A stretch of 32,000 nucleotides of DNA from Candidatus Altimarinota bacterium (GCA_041659405.1 JBAZYK010000004.1:90001-122000), one strand, 5' to 3'. Counted from the stretch's first letter, positions 1 through 32,000 are shown. Made by a program: numbers and translations. Notes: generated by a model from the letters alone, not told the origin.

Positions 1-28
1 CACCACGACGTACAACTTAAATTTCCCC

Positions 29-6832: not shown

Positions 6833-7738
6833 CTAAAGGTCCATTCGGTAAGCTTGAGGTTGAGGTGCGTTTCCGGTATTAGTCCCGGCTGCAGCAACGG
6901 CGCTTCCAACAGTAGCTCGGGCCGCATTTTCGGCGGCACCAACAGTATTCTCGGCACTATCAGCGGCAATCGAGACGGTTTGTTTTTGCTCATCCGGTGT
7001 TTCACGAAGCGCAGGATTAGGCTTTGGAGTTGGATATGCTGTGCGCATTTCCGGATGCACAGTTCTGAATTCCGGACGATTTTGTTTAGTATCTTGATGA
7101 ATGCGGGTTTCCTGCTGAATACGTGCCTCTGTCTGAGTTGAAGAAATTTCAGGCTTAATAGAAGCCATTTCCGGTCGGACCGAATTTGTTTCCGGTCGAA
7201 CACTGCGCAGACTTTCTCGTGATTTTTGTTGCACAGCAGCCATTATTGGATCTCTTGTTTCTTCTTCAAAAGCTTTAATTGCGTGAGTCTTTTCACGGGT
7301 ATTCAGATAGCCTCCGATTGTCAGACTTGATGCGGCCAAAAAGGCGATAAACATGCCATATCCCGGGTTTTTATCGGTAAGATTTACACCAAAATTTTTG
7401 TCAAAATAAATCGAATTGGTTACAAACAAAAGATAAAAAGAAAAAATCCCAAAACTCAAATAAAGCTTTGGAGATTTTAAAGATTCAAAAGGAATTTTAA
7501 CTCTCAAATGATTGGCAATAATTAAAGCCAGGGTCATTCCGGCCATAGCCAAAAAAGTGAGCCCAATCAAATACAGCGGGCCATTGATCCCAATAAAAGT
7601 TTGTCCATAATGGAATGTATCCAAATCGCTATACCAAGGCAAAAACAGACTCAAAATCATCAACAGGGAGCCGGCCCCAATCAGTTTTTTTTCAAAAGAA
7701 AGTTCTGAAACTATCTGATTAATGCGTTTATTTGGCAT
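6833..7738 (-). CDS. Integral membrane protein with repetitive RPE-rich C-terminal tail
   Basis: 301 aa. The N-terminal half has about 5 hydrophobic segments. The C-terminal tail has degenerate repeats (VRPETNSVRPEMASIKPE...NRPEFRTVHPEMRT). Confidence 0.65.
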   Translation of the reverse strand: MPNKRINQIVSELSFEKKLIGAGSLLMILSLFLPWYSDLDTFHYGQTFIGINGPLYLIGLTFLAMAGMTLALIIANHLRVKIPFESLKSPKLYLSFGIFSFYLLFVTNSIYFDKNFGVNLTDKNPGYGMFIAFLAASSLTIGGYLNTREKTHAIKAFEEETRDPIMAAVQQKSRESLRSVRPETNSVRPEMASIKPEISSTQTEARIQQETRIHQDTKQNRPEFRTVHPEMRTAYPTPKPNPALRETPDEQKQTVSIAADSAENTVGAAENAARATVGSAVAAAGTNTGNAPQPQAYRMDL

Positions 7739-11020: not shown

Positions 11021-11035
11021 AAGATTTCAAAATAA

Positions 11036-11078
11036 TAAAAAAGGGGAGGCACACATTGTGAACCTCCCCTTTTTTTAT
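11036..11078. terminator. Bidirectional intrinsic terminator between convergent genes
   Basis: The 9-bp GC-rich stem AAGGGGAGG (11041-11049) pairs with CCTCCCCTT (11063-11071). An A-run lies upstream and a T-run downstream, so it can serve both the 279-aa gene and ppdK. Confidence 0.75.
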
Positions 11079-11113
11079 TTAAAACAATTTCTCACGCACG
11101 AAGTGAATTCCGT

Positions 11114-24700: not shown

Positions 24701-25126
24701 TTACTTCCAAACCTGATACCACTTCCTTTTTGGCTGTTCCAAGAGTTTAAATTGATTTTCCAAACTCAAAAAACGATCCTGAAACGCCTTCATAAAACGC
24801 ATAAAACTTTCTTTGTCCTTCTTGTTACCTTCCAGCAAACCTTCAACGTGCGCCTGCAATTTTTGAAGATCCTGCAAAGTTGCAACCTCGGCGGAAACGG
24901 CCTTTGACTCTTCCTTGATTGAGCGTTGTTCACGATCAAAAATCGAACTCTGGCCAAGTTTATAAAACTTAACAAGACTTTCCTGGGTAATCAAATAATT
25001 AAAACCCTGTGGAGTCCTTTTTTTCTTTGCCTGAAGCTTTTTGCCTTTCAAAGCACGACGAATGGTTTGTAGCGATTTACCACTTATCTTAGCGGCTTCT
25101 TGAAGCGTTAGCAGAGTTTCAGGCAT
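24701..25126 (-). CDS. Excisionase/MerR-type helix-turn-helix DNA-binding protein with coiled-coil C-terminus
   Basis: 141 aa. N-terminal LLTLQEAAKISGKSLQTIRRALKGKKL (HTH_17-like). The remainder is helical and charged. Confidence 0.6.
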   Translation of the reverse strand: MPETLLTLQEAAKISGKSLQTIRRALKGKKLQAKKKRTPQGFNYLITQESLVKFYKLGQSSIFDREQRSIKEESKAVSAEVATLQDLQKLQAHVEGLLEGNKKDKESFMRFMKAFQDRFLSLENQFKLLEQPKRKWYQVWK

Positions 25127-25255: not shown

Positions 25256-25336
25256 ACAAAGACCTTGTCTCCAAATTGTCACCGTATGGTGGCGTTTCCA
25301 TGATTTCCATGGAATAGGAGCGGGGTCGTTTTTTTA
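25256..25336 (+). ncRNA. Candidate ~80-nt small RNA or leader element with a three-way-junction fold and U-tract
   Basis: The outer helix pairs 25261-25272 (GACCTTGTCTCC) with 25317-25327 (GGAGCGGGGTC): 11 pairs including 3 G-U, with 1 bulge. It encloses hairpin GTCACC-GTAT-GGTGGC (25278-25293) and hairpin TTCCATG-ATTTC-CATGGAA (25296-25314). A run of 7 T follows at 25329-25335. I recognise no family. Confidence 0.35.
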
Positions 25337-25499
25337 TTTAAATTCCCAAATATCATCGATTAATTTGTTGATGATTTTTCTTTGTGTATTTTAAAACCTG
25401 CGTCCCCCGATTCATCTATAAAAACGATCATAGTATTTTCAATACGGTGAAAATTACTACTATCTTAGTGGTTTGGCTCTTTTGAAAACCGACTGGTGC

Positions 25500-25596
25500 A
25501 GGGCACGCAGTGATGCCTGACACCGCGTGCTCTGGAAAACATAATGCTAAAATCTGCGCCGCCTGAGGCGGGGGGCAGGTAGCACGGGGCGTTTTT
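25500..25596 (+). promoter_or_regulatory. GC-rich structured element with mutually exclusive pairings ending in a U-tract
   Basis: Stem alpha pairs 25500-25508 with 25525-25533. A GC hairpin spans 25554-25578. Segment 25581-25588 (AGCACGGG) can instead pair with 25523-25531, and TTTTT follows at 25592-25596. The 41 nt at 25549-25589 are absent from the homologous right-hand arm. Confidence 0.3.
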
Positions 25597-25715
25597 GGGT
25601 AAAAAAGCCTTGCATCTTTAAAAAGATATTGGTAGGATAACCCTCCTTATCATTAAGCGCCATTTATGTTAGAAATAAGAGACCAGATAAACTTAATTGA
25701 CGATAGCCATATAAC
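25591..25715 (+). repeat. Inverted repeat, left arm (promoter, leader, ATG and first 17 codons)
   Basis: My hand alignment to the reverse complement of 31446-31580 gives 8 substitutions plus one 7-nt indel. Positions 25606-25647 are identical. Weaker homology extends outward to about 25480. Confidence 0.85.
25610..25638 (+). promoter_or_regulatory. Putative promoter of the aspS operon (inside the left repeat arm)
   Basis: TTGCAT (25610-25615), a 17-nt spacer, then TAGGAT (25633-25638). It lies 27 nt upstream of the ATG at 25666. The sequence is identical in the right arm. Confidence 0.5.
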
Positions 25716-27009
25716 CAAACCAGTCGAGATTGATGACTTAAGCAAGAGGTCAGGGGAGACCGTGCAAATGGAAGGTGCTGTTCACAAGATTAGAAGCTTG
25801 GGGAATGTAGCTTTTATCGTTATTCGAACTATAAGGGATAAATTACAGGTTGTTCTGGATGGTGAATCCATGCAATTACTTTCCGGTTTGAAAGAAGGCG
25901 ATTTTGTAAAATTCAGTGGCGTTGTGGAAGAAAATCCTAAAGCATATAAAGGGCAGGAAGTTAGAGCAACAGCCATAGATAAGTTAAGTGGAGCAAAGGA
26001 TGTATTAGAAGTTAATCTTGGGGCAAAAGAGCTTCCAATGAATCTTGAAACAAAATTGGATCGTAGGATTTTAACATTAAGGCATTTGCGTGAAAGAGCG
26101 GTTTTCAAACTGCAGGAAGGAGTTGGTGTTGCTTTTCGAGAATATCTTTTGGATCAGAGATTTACCGAAATACATTCGCCCAAAATAGTTGCAGCAGGAG
26201 CTGAAGGAGGAGCCAATATATTTAAACTTGATTATTTTGGACGACCTGCTTTTCTTGCTCAAAGTCCTCAATTTTATAAACAATTTATGGTTCCTGTGTA
26301 TGGTAGAGTTTTTGAAGTGGGGCCAGTTTTCCGCGCGGAGAAACATGCGACTTCGCGTCATATTAACGAATACACATCATTAGATTTTGAAATGGGTTTT
26401 ATTGATTCTTTTAGAGATGTTATGTCGATGGAAGTTGGTTTTTTGAAATATCTTATAGGGGTTTTGGGGCAGAGGTATGGACATGAACTTGAATTGCTTG
26501 GCATAAAACTGCCGGATATTAGTAGTGTCCCAGCTATTAAATTCGCTGATGCTAAGGAACAAGTAGCAAAAAAATATAACAGAAAATACAGAGATCCTTA
26601 TGATTTAGAACCAGAAGAAGAAAGATTGATCGGAGACATGGTTAAGCAAGAAACAGGAAGTGATTTCGTATTTCTAACCCATTACCCTAAGGCCAAACGT
26701 CCATTTTACACTATGTCGTCTACTGAAGATCCAAATTATACCGAAAGTTTTGATCTGCTTTTCAAAGGATTAGAAATTACCACTGGTGGTCAACGAATTC
26801 ATGATTATGACACACAGGTAGAAGCCTTAAGAGCAAAAGGGTTAAATCCAGATGACTTTAAGGATTATCTTGAATTACACAAAAATGGCACTCCTCCTCA
26901 TGGTGGTTGTGGAATTGGACTTGAGAGGTTAACATTAAAACTTTTAGGAGGAACCAATGTTAGAGAAGCAACGCTCTTCCCAAGAGATTTGAATCGTCTT
27001 ACTCCTTAA
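25666..27009 (+). CDS. aspS: Aspartate--tRNA ligase, archaeal/eukaryal type (class IIb) with a short N-terminal appendage
   Basis: 447 aa. OB-fold N-domain, QSPQFYKQ, motif 2 FRAEKHATSRHINEYTSLDFEM and motif 3 PPHGGCGIGLERL. The first 17 residues are shared with the unrelated ORF at 30029-31498. Confidence 0.85.
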   Translation: MLEIRDQINLIDDSHITKPVEIDDLSKRSGETVQMEGAVHKIRSLGNVAFIVIRTIRDKLQVVLDGESMQLLSGLKEGDFVKFSGVVEENPKAYKGQEVRATAIDKLSGAKDVLEVNLGAKELPMNLETKLDRRILTLRHLRERAVFKLQEGVGVAFREYLLDQRFTEIHSPKIVAAGAEGGANIFKLDYFGRPAFLAQSPQFYKQFMVPVYGRVFEVGPVFRAEKHATSRHINEYTSLDFEMGFIDSFRDVMSMEVGFLKYLIGVLGQRYGHELELLGIKLPDISSVPAIKFADAKEQVAKKYNRKYRDPYDLEPEEERLIGDMVKQETGSDFVFLTHYPKAKRPFYTMSSTEDPNYTESFDLLFKGLEITTGGQRIHDYDTQVEALRAKGLNPDDFKDYLELHKNGTPPHGGCGIGLERLTLKLLGGTNVREATLFPRDLNRLTP

Positions 27010-27020
27010 AGTGTAAAATT

Positions 27021-27779
27021 ATGTATCGAGAAGGTATTGAAGTGAAAAGGGATACAAATGCTGGCATACTCCTCGAATACCCTTCTTGTCTCGAAGTTGT
27101 TGAGAAACTCTTTCCTGATAGTTGTGAAAGAATTTATTATCCGAATGACGAAGATTCTGTTGTTCATGTGAATCGTGAAGGAATAGATGTTGCATTCATT
27201 GCAGGACATGGGGCAAGTATCGCAGCGTGCATGGCAGAAAGACTGCGCGTATATGGGGCACAAGCATTAGTACGTATTGGAACGTGCGGTGCCCTTTCAA
27301 AAACAGTGCGCCTTTGGGAACCGATCATCACTACGGCATGTTTTAGCGACGAAGGTACTTCGAGACATTATCTTCCCGAAGGATTTCCTATTGTTTCAAA
27401 TCCAGCATTAAATCTGGCTCTTCGTGAGCATTTTGAAAAAAGCGGGATAACTCCGCAAGAAGGCATATCCATTACGACTGACGGAAGATGGCGGGAGGAT
27501 CCAGGGCTTTTTAAAAAGTTACATGAACTTGGGGTAGTTTCGGTTGAAATGGAAACTGCAGCCATTCTTGCTGTAGCGCAATATCGAAAACTATTTGGCG
27601 CTGCGATTAATATCGCGACAGATTTGCCAGCAGATGTAGAGAGTGAACATGATTTTAAGGGGATTCCTGATCGTGAAAACTATGACGAAAATTTTGATAA
27701 GAGCTTACGGATAATTATCCCGATAGTTATCGATACGCTTGTTGCCTTTCAGAGAGTTGTTTTAGCTTCTCATCTATGA
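27021..27779 (+). CDS. PNP/UDP-family (PNP_UDP_1) nucleoside phosphorylase or nucleosidase-like protein
   Basis: 252 aa with AGHGASIAACMAERL...ALVRIGTCGAL and VSVEMETAAILAVAQ, typical of the DeoD/Udp/MTAN fold. Substrate is unknown. It starts 11 nt after the aspS stop. Confidence 0.7.
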   Translation: MYREGIEVKRDTNAGILLEYPSCLEVVEKLFPDSCERIYYPNDEDSVVHVNREGIDVAFIAGHGASIAACMAERLRVYGAQALVRIGTCGALSKTVRLWEPIITTACFSDEGTSRHYLPEGFPIVSNPALNLALREHFEKSGITPQEGISITTDGRWREDPGLFKKLHELGVVSVEMETAAILAVAQYRKLFGAAINIATDLPADVESEHDFKGIPDRENYDENFDKSLRIIIPIVIDTLVAFQRVVLASHL

Positions 27780-28411
27780 AAAGAGAATGGAATAACATTT
27801 CTGATGATACTGAGACGATGGTATTTACAACCCCTTTGCCAGATGCGCGAATTTTATCGTTAGCGCCGCCTGAGTCTTCAAGTGTGCTTGATATAGGTTG
27901 TGGTTATGGTCGTGTCTTAAAACATATGTATGAAATGGGATATCGAGATCTTACTGGGATTGACGTTTCCGATGGACTTATATTAAGAGCTAAACAATTG
28001 TGTCCTGATGCCGTCTATCGCATTCAAGATATTGAGAGTATCCAACTTGAACAAAAATATGATCTGATTTTAATCATGGGAGTTATTGAATATATTTTGA
28101 GTGATGAAAATCAGAAAGAATTTTTTGGTAAAGTGAGTAGAGCTCTTCGCCCTAATGGACACGTATTATTAGAAACATTTGTTCTTGACCCTACAAATAT
28201 ATGTCAGTACATGGCTGGACTATTGAAAACAGGCCATTTGGGCAGATTTACGAATAACAGTAAGGGATTTGAGTGTCATCATCAATCTTATGCAGTTGTA
28301 GATAGACTTGTGTCTGAATTTTTTGAGGTAATAATCCGAACTCGCCAAAAATTTTTAACCTGGACTGGCTATGAATGTAACGGGTATTCACTTATTCTTC
28401 GGGCTAAATAA
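27776..28411 (+). CDS. Class I SAM-dependent methyltransferase
   Basis: 211 aa. Motif I VLDIGCGYGRV and an acidic post-I DLTGIDVS. An ATGA start/stop overlap joins it to the upstream gene. Confidence 0.75.
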   Translation: MKREWNNISDDTETMVFTTPLPDARILSLAPPESSSVLDIGCGYGRVLKHMYEMGYRDLTGIDVSDGLILRAKQLCPDAVYRIQDIESIQLEQKYDLILIMGVIEYILSDENQKEFFGKVSRALRPNGHVLLETFVLDPTNICQYMAGLLKTGHLGRFTNNSKGFECHHQSYAVVDRLVSEFFEVIIRTRQKFLTWTGYECNGYSLILRAK

Positions 28412-28416
28412 TTTTT

Positions 28417-28617
28417 GTGATATACTTTCAATATATGATATCTTCGCAACACAACTCTTCTCTACGCCAGCTAGAACGTCTAATGCAAGAAAAGGATGAG
28501 GAACTGACCCGTCTAGACAATCTTAAAAAAAATGAATTTAGAGATATGCGGCGATTATCTGAAATAGATATGACGATACAAGAAATAAGGCGTAAAATGA
28601 TGTTTCACCATGAATAA
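28417..28617 (+). CDS. Small hypothetical helical protein
   Basis: 66 aa from the GTG start, or 60 aa from the ATG at 28435. It is charged and coiled-coil-like. Its stop overlaps the HIT start by 8 nt, which is the main argument that it is translated. Confidence 0.35.
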   Translation: MIYFQYMISSQHNSSLRQLERLMQEKDEELTRLDNLKKNEFRDMRRLSEIDMTIQEIRRKMMFHHE

Positions 28618-29020
28618 ATGTGTTTTTTGCATTATTGCGCGACGCGAAAAATCTGCCAACATTGTGTGGGAAGATGATTATGTGATGGCTTTTTTGGATA
28701 TTGATCCTATTTCAGATGGTCACACCCTTGTGATTCCAAAAAATCATATTCGCGATGTAAGTGGGCTAGACGAAAAAACAGGCTCTCACGTGATGAGTGT
28801 TGCAAAAATTTTAGCATCCGTTATAGAAAAAACTTTTGGATTCGATGGTATCGAAATCAGAGCTGTAAGTGGACATTTCCAAGATGTTCCTCATTTTCAT
28901 TTGCACGTTTTTGGCAGAAATAAGATAAATGACATAAAGATTATATATCCTAAAGGAATCAATAACTCTCCCGAATATTTGGCTAAAAACGCTAAAAAAA
29001 TCAAGGATGAATTGAAGTAA
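28610..29020 (+). CDS. HIT-family nucleotide hydrolase (histidine triad)
   Basis: 136 aa. N-terminal CVFCII, DGHTLVIPK, and the histidine triad HFHLHVFG. Confidence 0.85.
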   Translation: MNKCVFCIIARREKSANIVWEDDYVMAFLDIDPISDGHTLVIPKNHIRDVSGLDEKTGSHVMSVAKILASVIEKTFGFDGIEIRAVSGHFQDVPHFHLHVFGRNKINDIKIIYPKGINNSPEYLAKNAKKIKDELK

Positions 29021-29027
29021 AATTTTA

Positions 29028-30026
29028 CTATACGATCTTTGGTAATTTCTTTCCATTCCTATAAGAGTCAACTAAATCTGTATAATCTGATTTTTTATTC
29101 CCCTGTTTACTTGGACTAAAAGCAGTTAGATATCTGTTTCCAGAATCTGGACATAAAACAACTAAATTTTTTCCAGTAAGCCCGTTATCGTCTACAAACT
29201 GTTTTGCCGCTGCCACTGCCAATCCGCTAGAGCCTCCAATGTAAATTCCAGTTTCAGTTATTAGATTTTCTATTTCCATCAATGCTAGTGCATCCCGTAC
29301 TTCCACTACATTTGCGAGAATATCCAAATTTAAGTTTTTAGGGATGAAATCTTCACCAACACCTTCTATTGCAGTTACCACGTTTCTACTCTCATTTATT
29401 CCATGAAATTTTGTGTAGTAAACTCCTGAATCTGGAGTTACTCCTACAACTTTCGTAGGAAGATCTTCATCTTTAAAATACTGTGCAACGCCGGAGGCCG
29501 TCCCTCCAGTTCCCATAGGACTAAATACATAATCTGCATTTGGAACATTGTTATGTATTTCAGGGCCGGTCGTTTTTTTATGAGCTTCTGGATTTAAAGG
29601 ATTATTAAATTGATCTATGAAAATCGAATCACGAGTATTTTGTGCAATGATTTCAGCGAAACCTCTAAAACCCAATGGGGATTCTGAATGTACGGATTCA
29701 TCCACCATAATCAATTCTATTCCGTATCTTTGTAAAAGCTTAACCTTATCAGGACTAGTTTTGGATGTTATTATTAGCACTAATCTAAATCCATAAATTT
29801 TTGAAGCCATAGCCAGTCCAATTGCCAAATTACCACTGCTATATTCAACTACTGTTCGTCCGCGTAAACCTATTTTTTTATCTAATGAATTACATACATG
29901 AAAAGCAACACGATCTTTTATAGACAAACCTGGATTCGCTCCTTCAAGTTTTAAATGTAGGCGATTGTCTTTATAAGGTATTTCAACGATTGGAGTATTA
30001 CCAACCAAATTTTCCGCATTACGCAT
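29028..30026 (-). CDS. Fold-type II PLP-dependent enzyme of the cysteine synthase/cystathionine beta-synthase (CysK/CysM) family
   Basis: 332 aa with GNTPIVEI, the PLP lysine context NPGLSIKDR, SSGNLAIGLA, GTGGTASG and GGSSG. The true substrate is unknown. Confidence 0.8.
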   Translation of the reverse strand: MRNAENLVGNTPIVEIPYKDNRLHLKLEGANPGLSIKDRVAFHVCNSLDKKIGLRGRTVVEYSSGNLAIGLAMASKIYGFRLVLIITSKTSPDKVKLLQRYGIELIMVDESVHSESPLGFRGFAEIIAQNTRDSIFIDQFNNPLNPEAHKKTTGPEIHNNVPNADYVFSPMGTGGTASGVAQYFKDEDLPTKVVGVTPDSGVYYTKFHGINESRNVVTAIEGVGEDFIPKNLNLDILANVVEVRDALALMEIENLITETGIYIGGSSGLAVAAAKQFVDDNGLTGKNLVVLCPDSGNRYLTAFSPSKQGNKKSDYTDLVDSYRNGKKLPKIV

Positions 30027-30028
30027 AG

Positions 30029-31498
30029 CTATTTTTTGTTAAAAAAACGTCTAAAAAGTAAAGAATCTGGGACTTCTAAGCGCGGTCCATCACAAACACG
30101 TTGATATATCCAGCCTAAACCATCAACAAATTGCGGAATTTCTCCATGAGAAGCTATCGTCGGAACCCTGCGTCCAAAATATTGTTCATACGGCATTACT
30201 CTATCGTCATCATTTAAATGATCTGCTGGCAAAGCAGAATAATCAACTCCCAATTTTGCACTCATTTTTTCCCTGTCACCAACAAAATTTAATGACTGAT
30301 CAGTATTTGAGCTATCAACTGTTTGATATCTACCCGAGTATCTCTGGTCAAGATATTCTGCAACTTTTGGATTGAAAGGCAGTTCTTTGGAGAAAAGTTG
30401 ACTTTCTGCAATAACGTCTTTCCCATATTTAGCTACAAGCTTGTCGTATAATGGATTTCCAAATAAATAACCTGGTGTATCAATTACTTGAGGCATTTCT
30501 CTAAGATACTCGTATCCTTTTAAATGCATTGCAGTACTTGCGAGTTTTATACGTTGACATTTGTCGCAATATCCACAATCAGAGGCATTTTCGCTATTCC
30601 AGCATGATACGCGAGATTCAAGTGCTGCAAGTCCGAATTTACGTCGTATGTATTCAAATACTGAATATGTGCTTAAGGTGGCAAGAGGGTAAGTAAAACT
30701 TACCGATGGTCCCAATAATGATTCCAAATACTTTTGATGCAATTCCATTGCCATCGGACTCTCATAAGGAGCTCTTCTTCGATTTGAATTAAATCCCAAA
30801 ACATCAAATGAATGACCAATTGCAATGTGTTGAGGAACTCTATCTTCGACGTTCCATAAAGATGCAAAGTATGTCATTGAAATATCAAATGGCTCATATC
30901 TACCATCAAGTCCATTCCTACAAACATCGTGCTCATAAGTAGAATAATCAGCATTATCAGTAGGGTTCTTCTTATCATAATCAATTTTGTAGTCGCGAAG
31001 ATCAAACCCGCATGCTTTTAATATTTCAGCTGATACAAAAGAGTCTCTTCCTCCGCTATTTCCAATTACAATTTGATTTGGAACAGCAGTGACCGGGTCT
31101 GGATGTAATTCCGTCAATGTCCTCGCGGTCACAAGTGGTGGACGAGCATCATCCAGCGAACCAATGACCCCCGAACTGAGACGGCCGATAAATTCAAAAG
31201 ATCTAGGATCTAAATCAAAATCTAAATTGATTATCATGGATTGACGAAATTTGCCAATCATCGCGGCAATAAGTGCAGATTTTATTATTTCAAGACCAAC
31301 CTCTGTTGGCTTCTCTTTTGCAGTAAATCCAATTACCGATAAAATTTTACTTTGTATATCACTAGCTCTAAGTACAGCGGAATTTTGTGCGTGTTCAAAT
31401 TCGCAATTAATTATTGCATCTGAACTGACTTCACTACCTTGTTTATTGGTTATACGATTATCGTCGATTAAGTTTACCTGGTCTCTTATTTCTAACAT
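30029..31498 (-). CDS. PP-loop (N-type ATP pyrophosphatase) protein, QueC/ExsB-like core with N- and C-terminal extensions
   Basis: 489 aa. SGGRDS is at residues 148-153. SCWNSENASDCGYCDKC gives C-x8-C-x2-C-x2-C (residues 299-314), the spacing I recall for the QueC zinc site. About 145 aa N-terminal and 160 aa C-terminal have no recognised similarity. The stop lies 2 nt before the CysK-like start. Confidence 0.7.
   Translation of the reverse strand: MLEIRDQVNLIDDNRITNKQGSEVSSDAIINCEFEHAQNSAVLRASDIQSKILSVIGFTAKEKPTEVGLEIIKSALIAAMIGKFRQSMIINLDFDLDPRSFEFIGRLSSGVIGSLDDARPPLVTARTLTELHPDPVTAVPNQIVIGNSGGRDSFVSAEILKACGFDLRDYKIDYDKKNPTDNADYSTYEHDVCRNGLDGRYEPFDISMTYFASLWNVEDRVPQHIAIGHSFDVLGFNSNRRRAPYESPMAMELHQKYLESLLGPSVSFTYPLATLSTYSVFEYIRRKFGLAALESRVSCWNSENASDCGYCDKCQRIKLASTAMHLKGYEYLREMPQVIDTPGYLFGNPLYDKLVAKYGKDVIAESQLFSKELPFNPKVAEYLDQRYSGRYQTVDSSNTDQSLNFVGDREKMSAKLGVDYSALPADHLNDDDRVMPYEQYFGRRVPTIASHGEIPQFVDGLGWIYQRVCDGPRLEVPDSLLFRRFFNKK
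30557..30604 (-). other. Cys4 motif C-x8-C-x2-C-x2-C
   Basis: Residues 299-314, CWNSENASDCGYCDKC. Coordinates come from frame arithmetic. Confidence 0.7.
31040..31057 (-). other. PP-loop motif SGGRDS
   Basis: The codons AGC GGA GGA AGA GAC TCT are read on the minus strand in the frame of ORF 30029-31498. Confidence 0.8.
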
Positions 31499-31580
31499 AA
31501 ATGGCGCTTGGCGCTTAATGATGAGGAGGGTTATCCTACCAATATCTTTTTAAAGATGCAAGGCTCTTTTACACAAAAAC
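31446..31580 (-). repeat. Inverted repeat, right arm (promoter, leader, ATG and first 17 codons)
   Basis: Its reverse complement aligns to 25591-25715. It carries a 7-nt tandem duplication (AAGCGCC AAGCGCC) in the leader. Distal homology blocks lie at 31581-31602 and 31830-31860, separated by a 227-nt arm-specific insert. Confidence 0.85.
31533..31561 (-). promoter_or_regulatory. Putative promoter of the QueC-like/CysK-like operon (inside the right repeat arm)
   Basis: Read on the minus strand: TTGCAT (31561-31556), a 17-nt spacer, then TAGGAT (31538-31533). It is identical to the left-arm promoter. Confidence 0.5.
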
Positions 31581-31856
31581 GGGATCATACGTTTTCCACA
31601 GATCAGTAGTTTTTTATTATGCGAACAAAAGTACACAACAACACAATTCTGGAAGGATTTAGCAAAATTCATTTTGGCTTGCAGGTGCGGACTTTTGACC
31701 ATTTTCGCCTTCACTGGAAGGAATTCCCCACAATTTTTAGCACTCGTTAGTGTGCATTTACAAAGAAATTTTCCCGAGTTTTGATTTGAAATTATTTCAA
31801 AGAAAAAAGCGTATGACCCCAAAAATATCCTGCGCTGCCTGCACCAGTTGGTTCTC

Positions 31857-31885
31857 AAAAAAAACCTCTGTAGGTTAGCCTACAG
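31857..31885 (-). terminator. Intrinsic terminator downstream of the tRNA gene
   Basis: The 7-bp stem CTGTAGG/CCTACAG (31868-31885) has a 4-nt loop. On the minus strand it is followed, after 3 nt, by a run of 8 T (31857-31864). Confidence 0.55.
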
Positions 31886-31965: not shown

Positions 31966-32000
31966 TGGTGGGCTAGATCGGAATCGAACCGATGACCATC
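31966..32000 (-). tRNA. tRNA gene, 3' portion only (truncated by the window edge), with encoded CCA
   Basis: The reverse complement reads ...GGTCATCGGTTCGATTCCGATCTAGCCCACCA. This gives a T-arm ATCGG-TTCGATT-CCGAT, a 3' acceptor strand CTAGCCC, discriminator A and CCA. The anticodon lies outside the window, so identity is unknown. Confidence 0.7.

What the first reader, a model, noticed from the sequence alone, without database searches (positions are those of the whole stretch)
25480..31860. Two convergent operons are each headed by an inverted copy of the same promoter-leader-start module
The left arm (25591-25715) and the reverse complement of the right arm (31446-31580) align by hand with 8 substitutions. 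There is also one 7-nt tandem duplication (AAGCGCC twice) in the right-arm leader. That is roughly 93-94 percent identity.

A 42-nt block (25606-25647) containing TTGCAT-17 nt-TAGGAT is identical in both arms. The repeat covers the putative -35 and -10, the ~27-nt leader, the ATG and the first 17 codons of two unrelated genes that face each other across 5.7 kb.

Weaker homology continues outward (25480-25548 versus 31581-31602 and 31830-31860). It is interrupted by arm-specific insertions: 41 nt on the left and 227 nt on the right. No transposase, integrase or invertase ORF lies inside or beside the segment.

I see two non-exclusive readings. One is a duplicated portable expression module that enforces co-regulation of the two operons. 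The other is a substrate for homologous inversion of the whole segment, which would swap the different upstream contexts between the operons.
Basis: partly seen in the sequence, partly recalled or inferred. Interest (0 to 1): 0.85.

Follow-up and report, generated by a model that had tools for sequence, protein, structure and literature searches.

The report
aspS promoter-and-start copied onto partner gene
In one uncultured Peribacteria-type (CPR) bacterium, about 130 bases carrying the promoter, leader and first 17 codons of the aspartyl-tRNA synthetase gene were copied in inverted orientation onto a neighbouring gene of the same conserved gene set, so both halves of the set now start from the same signals; this is a clean natural case of promoter capture, not a new kind of genetic switch.

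Summary
A computed alignment pairs 25590-25718 with the reverse complement of 31446-31581: 8 substitutions, one 7-nt tandem duplication, 93.8% identity, E=8e-46. It is the only long repeat in the window.

The left arm is the native 5' end of aspS. Orthologous aspS genes carry the same TTGCAT-16/17-TGG-nAnnAT promoter, leader and N-terminus. The right arm is a lineage-specific copy that replaced the promoter and start codon of gene B, a rare PP-loop/QueC-like enzyme. B orthologues lack the 17 residues. B has no other start codon before codon 80. Most differences between the arms are derived in the right arm.

The two operons are not functionally unrelated. AspRS, HIT, B and a CysK-like PLP enzyme, often with a PNP-like enzyme and a methyltransferase, stay adjacent in every locus found that is long enough to show B's neighbours. 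They do so through many gene orders and in three phyla. In several relatives aspS and B are co-transcribed.

The best reading is promoter capture that re-couples a split gene set. I found nothing that supports an inversion switch: no recombinase, both arms carry the promoter, the arms differ by 6%, and the one independent assembly I could read has the same orientation. Inversion is not excluded. This is a new member of a known kind and of moderate interest.

The parts
25480..25514 (+). Outer homology piece, left copy. It lies in the intergenic DNA upstream of aspS.
   Evidence: Local alignment to 31860-31827 scores 41, against a shuffle mean of 19 and maximum of 32. The motif occurs only twice in the window.
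25554..25596 (+). G+C-rich hairpin followed by a T-run, immediately upstream of the aspS promoter. It is present only at the left arm and is probably an insulating terminator.
   Evidence: It is homologous to the hairpin upstream of aspS in L003 and L006 (GCGCCGCC..GGGGGC..). It is absent from the right arm. The terminator role is inferred.
25590..25718 (+). Left arm, the native aspS 5' region. It holds the -35 TTGCAT (25610-25615), a 17-nt spacer ending in TGG, the -10 TAGGAT (25633-25638), a 27-nt stretch to the ATG at 25666, and codons 1-17 plus two bases of codon 18.
   Evidence: define the repeat. It is orthologous to the aspS 5' regions of L003, L006 and L002, which conserve TTGCAT-16/17-TGG-nAnnAT. 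The N-terminus is shared with AspRS orthologues P0021-P0023. The same promoter layout sits upstream of other genes in the window.
25666..27009 (+). aspS, an archaeal-type (non-discriminating type) aspartyl-tRNA synthetase of 447 aa. It is the first gene of the left operon.
   Evidence: Pfam tRNA-synt_2 and OB fold. NCBIfam NF003483 scores 532 bits against a cut-off of 353.
27021..29020 (+). Rest of the left operon: a PNP/AMP-nucleosidase-like gene (27021-27779), a SAM methyltransferase (27776-28411), a 66-aa ORF (28417-28617) and a HIT hydrolase (28610-29020).
   Evidence: The genes are tightly spaced or overlap.
29028..30026 (-). CysK/SbnA/CBS-like PLP enzyme (PALP, 332 aa), the second gene of the right operon. 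Its stop codon lies 7 nt from the HIT stop codon, and there is no G+C-rich terminator between them.
   Evidence: all matches are below the equivalog cut-offs. Searches show no terminator.
30029..31498 (-). Gene B, a 489-aa PP-loop (SGGRDS) enzyme with a QueC-like four-cysteine site. Here it is a chimera: residues 1-17 come from aspS and the rest is native B.
   Evidence: Orthologues lack the 17 residues. There is no in-frame ATG, GTG or TTG between codon 1 and codon 80. Residues 1-25 have pLDDT below 50 in the AF2 model. The core matches QueC, MnmA and TtuA weakly.
31446..31581 (-). Right arm, the copied aspS 5' region. It holds the -35 (31561-31556), the -10 (31538-31533), the tandem AAGCGCC pair (31503-31516), the ATG (31498-31496) and 17 grafted codons.
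   Evidence: At 6 of the 8 substitutions the right arm carries the derived base, judged against the nearest outgroup.
31582..31826 (-). A 245-nt A+T-rich stretch found only at the right arm, between the module and the outer homology piece. Its origin is unknown.
   Evidence: It has no match in the window or in any fetched locus. It has no Rfam match and no significant fold on either strand.
31827..31860 (-). Outer homology piece, right copy.
31868..31885 (-). Terminator-like hairpin followed by a T-run, downstream of tRNA-Lys. It would insulate the right arm from upstream transcription.
31966..32000 (-). 3' part of tRNA-Lys(UUU), cut by the end of the window.
   Evidence: ARAGORN and Rfam find the full gene on contig copy L001 at 7024-7099, which maps to window 31966-32041.

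Best explanation
A single, lineage-specific inverted segmental duplication copied the 5' end of aspS onto the start of gene B, at the far end of the same gene set. The copy holds an extended -10 promoter (TTGCAT-17-TGG-TAGGAT), an unstructured leader without a Shine-Dalgarno sequence, the ATG and 17 codons. The copied tract was originally about 240 nt. It replaced B's own promoter and start codon.

As a result, B is now transcribed from a copy of the aspS promoter. It is translated from the aspS start codon as a chimera with a 17-residue, probably disordered, AspRS-derived tail.

AspRS, the PNP-like enzyme, the methyltransferase, HIT, the CysK-like PLP enzyme and B form one conserved functional gene set. 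In several relatives aspS and B are co-transcribed. The graft therefore restores common control to two halves that an earlier rearrangement had left as convergent operons.

Shown: the repeat, its direction (aspS to B), its uniqueness to this lineage, the chimeric reading frame, and the conserved linkage of the genes. Inferred: that TTGCAT/TAGGAT is the active promoter, that the two operons are co-expressed, and that co-expression is why the graft was kept.
For: The repeat is real and unique in the window.

Direction of the copy:
- AspRS orthologues at 80-88% identity start MPEIKEQFSLIDDSHLAK, MPEIKDQISLIDDHSLQK and ..MEEITGKMDLIDDCSLTK. Their upstream DNA aligns with the module, including the -35, the TGG and the -10.
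- The 15 full-length B orthologues aligned (44-65% identity) all lack the segment and start where the graft ends.
- Six of the 8 substitutions are derived in the right arm, judged against the nearest outgroup.
- The G+C-rich hairpin upstream of the left arm is shared with L003.

Uniqueness to this lineage:
- L002 has the same convergent layout but no inverted repeat of 30 nt or more. Its gene B has its own TTGTGT-17-TGGTATAAT promoter.
- No comparable repeat is found in six other loci.

B is still functional:
- It has only one possible start codon.
- It keeps every family-invariant residue.
- An intact frame after 3-6% neutral substitution would be expected in only 11% to 1% of cases.

Promoter reading: the same TTGNNN-13..15-TGn-TAnnnT layout lies 28-43 nt upstream of other genes and 12 nt upstream of the DUF3800-IX RNA.

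Functional linkage:
- aspS, HIT, B and PALP are adjacent in every Peribacteria locus that carries B and is long enough to show them, in co-directional, divergent and convergent orders.
- B homologues of only 21-27% identity in Elizabethkingia anophelis, Metasolibacillus meyeri and a 28% G+C metagenome contig still sit with PALP and an AspRS. Two of these three loci also have HIT, one has PNP and two have a methyltransferase.
Against: No transcription data exist. The generic sigma-70 scan does not call TTGCAT/TAGGAT a promoter, because it matches only 7 of 12 consensus positions.

The 42-nt identical core is not statistically special (P about 0.25), so it is not evidence of selection on the promoter.

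Only 39 kb of the genome could be searched for further copies.

The structure of the right arm (outer piece, then 245 unrelated nt, then the module) needs at least one further event that I cannot reconstruct.

Adaptive value is inferred. The graft could be a neutral replacement of one adequate promoter by another.
Confidence: 0.72

Rival explanations
1. Neutral promoter replacement. The duplication is real and runs from aspS to B. It was fixed by drift because any adequate promoter and start will do, so the shared signals have no regulatory meaning.
For: The relative L002 runs the same convergent layout with an unrelated promoter for B. The grafted peptide drifts: 3 of 17 residues are replaced and it is predicted to be disordered. 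The identical core is compatible with chance.
Against: The genes are co-transcribed or share a divergent control region in most relatives, which argues that coordinated expression matters. The donor of the copy is the functional partner, which is what selection for coupling would predict. However, the partner is also simply the nearest donor.
Confidence: 0.2
2. Invertible segment. The two arms are substrates for recombination that flips the 5.9-kb gene set, swapping upstream contexts or the orientation relative to replication as a switch.
For: Inverted repeats of 129/136 nt with a 42-nt identical core flank the whole gene set. Gene order and the strand of HIT differ between relatives, so the region has a history of small inversions. 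An excisionase-like HTH protein lies beside the left arm.
Against: Each arm carries the promoter and start, so neither orientation silences anything. No tyrosine or serine recombinase or transposase is present in 39 kb. The arms differ by 6%, with changes concentrated in one arm, which is not the pattern of frequent exchange. The left-flank hairpin is still the ancestral aspS context. The one independent assembly I could read is co-linear with the window and identical over the segment. The 90%-identity clusters of both proteins hold a single sequence each, so no arm-swapped variants are on record.
Confidence: 0.07
3. Dispersed mobile promoter or MITE-like repeat. The module is one of many copies spread through the genome.
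For: Short promoter-bearing repeats of this kind exist, for example Correia and ERIC elements and the 'putative mobile promoters' (PMC3575422).
Against: There are exactly two copies in 39 kb. The core has no exact match in the two public collections scanned, which however do not hold this genome either. Relatives carry a single copy at aspS, where it is vertically conserved. I saw no terminal inverted repeats or target duplications in the aligned arm ends. The repeat ends inside two reading frames.
Confidence: 0.03
4. Shared functional peptide. The 17 residues are kept on both proteins because they act as a common tag, for example for docking, localisation or turnover.
For: Both proteins start with the same 7 residues and share 14 of 17. 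The LIDD motif is conserved among close AspRS orthologues.
Against: No B orthologue has such a segment. Three of the four coding changes in the shared codons replace residues, and all are on the B copy. The AF2 confidence for residues 1-25 is below 50. More distant AspRS orthologues lack the motif.
Confidence: 0.05

Closest known systems
Promoter reuse / 'putative mobile promoters' (Matus-Garcia, Nijveen and van Passel 2012; summarised in PMC3575422) and promoter capture by duplication (the E. coli Cit+ case cited there)
   Same: Two non-homologous genes in one genome are preceded by near-identical upstream DNA. Pairs in that survey average 92% identity (PMC3575422); the arms here are 94% identical. 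No mobile element is involved. The expected effect is rewiring of transcription.
   Different: The donor can be named (aspS) and the direction of the copy is polarised by outgroups. The copy runs through the start codon and 17 codons, giving an in-frame chimera. That survey filtered out such cases by design. Donor and recipient belong to the same conserved gene set, and the copies form an inverted repeat around it.
DNA-inversion systems with inverted repeats in 5' coding regions (Ureaplasma mba/UU172, PMC3047005; by my own recollection also Mycoplasma vsa, hsdS shufflons and fimS-type invertons)
   Same: The inverted repeats include the start of the coding sequence and bracket several kb. Recombination between them would exchange what follows a given promoter and N-terminus.
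   Different: Those systems have one expression site and silent partners, plus a dedicated recombinase, and both orientations coexist. Here both arms are complete expression sites, no recombinase is present, and only one orientation is on record.
Shared upstream-plus-leader blocks in gene families, such as the Borrelia 'upstream homology box' erp/mlp loci (from my own knowledge; the term appears in PMC12018966 and PMC10016077, which I did not read)
   Same: A conserved promoter region and the first codons are shared by otherwise different genes, giving common regulation.
   Different: Those are multi-copy families on prophage plasmids, and the shared codons encode a lipoprotein signal peptide. 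Here a single pair of cytoplasmic enzymes carries a non-functional-looking tail.
Natural-product gene clusters that carry an extra aminoacyl-tRNA synthetase as self-resistance (for example mupirocin/IleRS, albomycin/SerRS and agrocin 84/LeuRS; HIT-type immunity to microcin C-like aspartyl-adenylate mimics). Cited from my own knowledge.
   Same: An aaRS and a HIT hydrolase are embedded with small-molecule enzymes. The set occurs sporadically in unrelated phyla, next to an MFS exporter, carrier-protein genes and a transposase.
   Different: No product is known. I could not determine whether the Peribacteria AspRS is a second copy. None of the known clusters has this PP-loop plus CysK-like pair.

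Membership tests
Promoter reuse pair (putative mobile promoter, sensu Matus-Garcia et al. 2012) | At least 80% identity over at least 50 nt of upstream DNA of two genes in the same genome | tested here: met
   The 76 nt upstream of the ATG (25590-25665) differ by 3 substitutions and one 7-nt indel. Overall E=7.6e-46.
Promoter reuse pair (putative mobile promoter, sensu Matus-Garcia et al. 2012) | The match lies in the -150 to -50 interval used by the published pipeline | tested here: not met
   Contiguous homology reaches only to -76. The next matching piece is at about -186 to -152. The strict published filter (PMC3575422) would therefore miss this pair.
Promoter reuse pair (putative mobile promoter, sensu Matus-Garcia et al. 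2012) | The downstream coding sequences are not paralogous | tested here: met
   AspRS and the PP-loop protein have different Pfam families. Homology stops after codon 17. The shared 51 coding nt would trip the published paralogue filter.
Site-specific invertible element (inverton or shufflon) | Inverted repeats flank the segment | tested here: met
Site-specific invertible element (inverton or shufflon) | A dedicated tyrosine or serine recombinase is encoded nearby | tested here: not met
   Pfam and PHROG scans of the long ORFs in the window and of unannotated ORFs in the 7 kb to the right, together with precomputed Pfam hits for the other flank genes, find no recombinase. The only related hit is a 141-aa HTH_17/excisionase-like protein without a catalytic domain.
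Site-specific invertible element (inverton or shufflon) | Orientation decides which gene is joined to the single promoter or expressed 5' end | tested here: not met
   The -35, -10, leader and ATG are present in both arms, and the 40-nt core is identical.
Site-specific invertible element (inverton or shufflon) | Both orientations coexist in the population | not testable with these tools
   The one independent contig I could read (L001) has the same orientation as the window. Each protein cluster holds one sequence. No reads were available.
MITE or dispersed intergenic repeat (Correia, ERIC, REP types) | Many copies per genome | tested here: inconclusive
   There are two copies in 39 kb. The two public collections scanned have no exact match, but they do not hold this genome either. 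The rest of the genome was not available.
MITE or dispersed intergenic repeat (Correia, ERIC, REP types) | Own terminal inverted repeats, a target-site duplication, and independence from any one gene | tested here: not met
   The unit is the vertically conserved 5' end of aspS and ends inside two reading frames. No terminal repeats or target duplication are visible at the aligned arm ends.
cis-regulatory RNA leader (riboswitch, T-box or attenuator) | A conserved, stable structure in the 5' UTR, or an Rfam match | tested here: not met
   No Rfam match covers either arm at E up to 1. The leader plus early codons fold no better than shuffles in both arms and in two orthologues, with z from -0.36 to +1.42.

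The most novel reading that the evidence does not exclude
The six genes bracketed by the repeat may be an uncharacterised, horizontally spread gene set. In it a rare QueC-like PP-loop enzyme and a CysK/SbnA-like PLP enzyme would make an aspartate- or asparagine-like metabolite or aminoacyl-nucleotide. The archaeal-type AspRS and the HIT hydrolase would serve as the resistant target and as immunity, or the chemistry would act on Asp-tRNA. Under this reading the promoter graft locks production and protection to the same promoter, a toxin/antidote-style coupling achieved by copying a promoter. The same core (AspRS, PALP and B, with HIT in one of the two) occurs in the cultivable bacteria Elizabethkingia anophelis and Metasolibacillus meyeri, which would make the chemistry testable.
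Probability: 0.15. Interest if true: 0.7.

Novelty: new member of a known kind. Interest (0 to 1): 0.4.

Why it matters
This is an unusually well-resolved natural example of regulatory rewiring by promoter capture. Donor, recipient, direction, junction (within a codon or two of the recipient's old start) and relative age can all be read from the sequence and from outgroups. It shows how a gene set split into two convergent operons can regain common control without being re-fused into one operon. It does so in an organism that uses no Shine-Dalgarno sequences, where the unstructured first codons are plausibly part of the 'start module'. It also flags a very small protein family (42 representatives among 1.84 billion). 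That family's constant company (AspRS, and usually HIT and a CysK-like enzyme, often with PNP-like and methyltransferase genes) across three phyla points to unknown chemistry linked to aspartyl-tRNA synthetase.

Tried and rejected
- RNA element in the arms: rejected. Rfam finds nothing at gathering or at E up to 1. The leaders fold no better than shuffles. The G+C-rich left upstream region has z=-1.24.
- Structured RNA or gene in the 245-nt right-specific stretch: rejected. There is no significant fold on either strand and no similarity to anything held.
- Generic sigma-70 scan: it does not list the module, which matches 7 of 12 positions. I kept the promoter reading only because the motif is conserved in orthologues and recurs upstream of other genes in the window.
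- Further copies or other strains: exact scans of genome contigs and metagenome contigs for the 37-nt core found nothing, not even this genome. These scans are therefore uninformative about copy number.
- A second, older graft: the B orthologue P0009 starts MLNLKD..DDN and looked similar. Its own AspRS starts differently and its upstream DNA is unrelated, so I treat this as a chance resemblance.
- Arm-swapped protein variants: not looked up separately, because the 90%-identity clusters of both proteins contain one sequence each.
- Selection on the 42-nt identical core: not supported (P about 0.25).
- Alternative genetic code (the NCBI label is 'Gracilibacteria'): the ORFs are long and tightly packed under table 11, and the relatives are Peribacteria, so I kept table 11.
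- Assembly artefact: rejected. The arms differ by 6% and share at most 42 identical bases. An independent k141 assembly is identical over the segment.

Full report
**1. The observation**

The repeat is there as described. The repeat finder reports inverted pairs 25590-25662/31509-31581 (73 nt, 96%) and 25655-25718/31446-31509 (64 nt, 92%), offset by a 7-nt indel. blastn of the window against itself returns one hit, 25590-25718 vs 31581-31446 (136 columns, E=7.6e-46). It is the only long repeat in 32 kb.

A base-by-base count gives 8 substitutions, a tandem AAGCGCC pair in the right arm, 93.8% identity, and an identical block at 25606-25647. The 40-nt core occurs exactly twice in the window, against 0 expected.

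Two claims need trimming:
- A 42-nt identical run is expected in about 25% of random placements of the nine differences.
- Of the outward homology, only 25480-25514 vs 31860-31827 exceeds chance (score 41; shuffle maximum 32). The 14-nt piece does not.

**2. What the arms head**

The left arm leads into a five-gene operon on the + strand:
- an archaeal-type AspRS (NCBIfam 'aspartate--tRNA(Asn) ligase', 532 bits against a cut-off of 353);
- a PNP/AMP-nucleosidase-like protein;
- a SAM methyltransferase;
- a 66-aa ORF;
- a HIT hydrolase.

The right arm leads into two genes on the - strand: gene B and a CysK/SbnA-like PLP enzyme. Gene B encodes a 489-aa protein with a PP-loop (SGGRDS) and a QueC-like four-cysteine cluster. 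The HIT and PLP-enzyme stop codons are 7 nt apart, and no G+C-rich terminator lies between them.

NCBI labels the organism 'Candidatus Gracilibacteria'. The relatives found in GTDB genomes are Candidatus Peribacteria. The genes read well under table 11 and none has a Shine-Dalgarno motif.

**3. Which arm is the original**

The N-terminus MLEIRDQINLIDDSHITK belongs to AspRS. Orthologues of 80-88% identity begin MPEIKEQFSLIDDSHLAK, MPEIKDQISLIDDHSLQK and ..MEEITGKMDLIDDCSLTK. Their upstream DNA aligns with the module and conserves TTGCAT, a 16-17 nt spacer ending in TGG, nAnnAT, the leader and the ATG. The G+C-rich hairpin just upstream of the left arm is also shared with the L003/L006 aspS region.

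By contrast, the 15 full-length B orthologues aligned (44-65% identity) all lack the segment. They start about where the graft ends.

In the window, B has no in-frame ATG, GTG or TTG between codon 1 and codon 80, while conserved residues begin near residue 32. B must therefore be translated from the grafted ATG. An AlphaFold model gives pLDDT below 50 for residues 1-25 and high confidence for most of the rest.

At 6 of the 8 substitutions the nearest outgroup agrees with the left arm. The right arm is therefore the drifting copy. Three of its four coding changes in the shared codons replace residues.

**4. The event is lineage-specific**

L002 is the closest relative that carries B (AspRS 80%, B 65% identity). 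It has the same convergent layout but no inverted repeat. Its B gene has its own TTGTGT-17-TGGTATAAT promoter and its own start, MFRNEIE... Six further loci show no comparable repeat.

One apparent second case (P0009) proved to be a chance resemblance.

The graft is therefore younger than the convergent arrangement. It is old enough for the arms to differ by 6%. If B had been free to decay over that divergence, an open frame would survive substitutions alone in only 11% (at 3%) to 1% (at 6%) of simulations. B also keeps every invariant residue of its family. I conclude the chimera works.

**5. Is the module a promoter?**

There is no transcript evidence. The generic scan misses it because it matches only 7 of 12 consensus positions. 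However:
- the motif is conserved across orthologues whose flanks have diverged;
- the same TTGNNN-13..15-TGn-TAnnnT layout lies 28-43 nt upstream of two other genes in the window;
- the same layout lies 12 nt upstream of the DUF3800-IX RNA.

The leader and early codons are unstructured in both arms and in two orthologues. In a genome without Shine-Dalgarno sequences, this makes it plausible that the first codons are part of a working start module. That last point is inference.

**6. The two operons are one functional unit**

| Locus | Host | Gene order |
|---|---|---|
| L010 | Peribacteria-type | aspS>B>PALP |
| L015 | Peribacteria-type | aspS>HIT>B>PALP |
| L017 | Peribacteria-type | aspS>HIT>130-aa ORF>B>PALP |
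| L008, L009, L012, L013 | Peribacteria | aspS divergent from (HIT>)B>PALP |
| Window, L002 | Peribacteria-type | convergent |
| L019 | 28% G+C metagenome contig | aaRS>B>PALP>PNP>MT, then HIT on the opposite strand, next to a transposase |
| L018 | Elizabethkingia anophelis | MT, AspRS, PALP and B, with a serine acetyltransferase and an MFS transporter |
| L020 | Metasolibacillus meyeri | PALP, B, AspRS and HIT, beside carrier-protein, adenylation and ketoreductase genes |

In every Peribacteria-type locus that carries B and is long enough to show its neighbours, AspRS, HIT, B and the PLP enzyme are adjacent, whatever the order.

The B family is tiny: 42 representatives at E of 0.001 or better among 1.84 billion. 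Even so, homologues of only 21-27% identity keep the same company in three distant loci. All of these aaRS genes score as archaeal-type AspRS.

In several relatives they already share a promoter. This is the main argument that the graft re-couples them.

**7. Inversion**

I found nothing that supports an inversion switch:
- Both arms are complete expression sites.
- No recombinase or transposase is encoded in the window or in 7 kb beyond it. The only related hit is a small excisionase-like HTH protein at 24701-25126.
- Divergence between the arms is asymmetric.
- The left flank is ancestral.
- The independent assembly L001 is identical over the segment and co-linear with the window.
- No near-identical protein variants are on record.

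Rare RecA-type inversion through the 42-nt core remains possible. It would have little obvious consequence.

**8. What remains unexplained**

The right arm is a mosaic: the outer 34 nt, then 245 unrelated A+T-rich nt, then the module. The G+C-rich hairpin present on the left is missing. At least one further deletion or insertion followed the duplication. The mechanism that produced an inverted copy 5.7 kb away is unknown.

**9. Comparison and verdict**

This works like the promoter reuse and capture described for thousands of gene pairs (PMC3575422). It would fail that survey's formal filters, because the homology lies close to and across the start codon. It is not an inverton or shufflon of the Ureaplasma mba type (PMC3047005), not a MITE, and not a riboswitch leader.

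Novelty: a new member of a known kind. Interest is moderate (0.4). The by-product is the more open question: a conserved AspRS/HIT/PP-loop/CysK-like gene set of unknown chemistry that also occurs in cultivable bacteria.

Noticed in passing
window 25666-31498; loci L002, L008-L010, L012-L015, L017-L021: AspRS (archaeal type), HIT, a rare PP-loop/QueC-like protein and a CysK/SbnA-like PLP enzyme stay adjacent through many gene orders in Peribacteria, often with PNP-like and methyltransferase genes. A similar core appears in Elizabethkingia anophelis (no HIT seen), Metasolibacillus meyeri and a 28% G+C contig, there next to a serine acetyltransferase, an MFS exporter, carrier-protein genes or a transposase. 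It looks like an uncharacterised, horizontally spread biosynthetic or resistance gene set.
   Followed up: partly
L010 1-30 and 6519-6548: The 6.5-kb Logan contig that carries the whole gene set has identical 30-nt ends, so it looks circular. The repeat lies in a tRNA-3'-half-like sequence, and no full tRNA is found after circularising. It could be an att-like direct repeat, a small circle or an assembly cycle.
   Followed up: partly
window 25261-25331 (+): A full-length match to the Rfam DUF3800-IX RNA motif (62.6 bits against a gathering score of 36.8). It has a promoter-like site ending 12 nt upstream and lies between the HTH gene and the left arm.
   Followed up: no
window 24701-25126 (-): A 141-aa HTH_17 protein with weak excisionase and MerR-like PHROG matches lies next to the left arm. 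It has no catalytic recombinase domain and does not accompany the gene set in other genomes.
   Followed up: partly
window 29018-29030 and 11030-11080: The convergent HIT and PLP-enzyme genes end 7 nt apart with only a weak A+T palindrome between them. Another convergent pair in the window is separated by a 51-nt near-perfect palindrome. Two copies of the same promoter therefore probably transcribe into each other.
   Followed up: partly
window 25614-25627 and 31557-31544: The promoter spacer contains the dyad ATCTTT-AA-AAAGAT, a possible operator. The orthologues have different spacer sequences (L002 has TCATATGA), so it may be chance.
   Followed up: no
whole window: None of 22 gene starts has a Shine-Dalgarno motif. 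Twenty-one of 22 stop codons are TAA or TAG, and the single TGA overlaps the next ATG.
   Followed up: no
L003-L007 (aspS 88% identical): The closest aspS relatives carry aspS>PNP>MT followed by an SHMT-like PLP enzyme, a 382-aa protein and a RimJ/RimL-type (Acetyltransf_3) acetyltransferase, in place of HIT, the PLP enzyme and B. The PNP-like gene is split in four of the five contigs and intact in L006.
   Followed up: no
gene B, window 30029-31498 (-): In the AF2 model (pLDDT 82.7) the top Foldseek PDB hits are ribosomal protein uS11 chains (about 120-145 aligned columns; I take these to be the N-terminal domain), and the longer QueC matches (3bl5, 2pg3) probably cover the PP-loop core. All matches are weak.
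   Followed up: partly
window 31966-32000 (-), continuing in L001: tRNA-Lys(UUU) lies upstream of the right arm. Beyond it, on the longer contig, lie a 223-aa unknown gene, DnaJ, a PIN toxin and an AbiEi/AbiEii pair.
   Followed up: partly
window 28610-29020 vs L002 3032-3439: The HIT gene sits on the aspS strand in the window but on the gene-B strand in L002. A single small gene has therefore flipped between close relatives.
   Followed up: no
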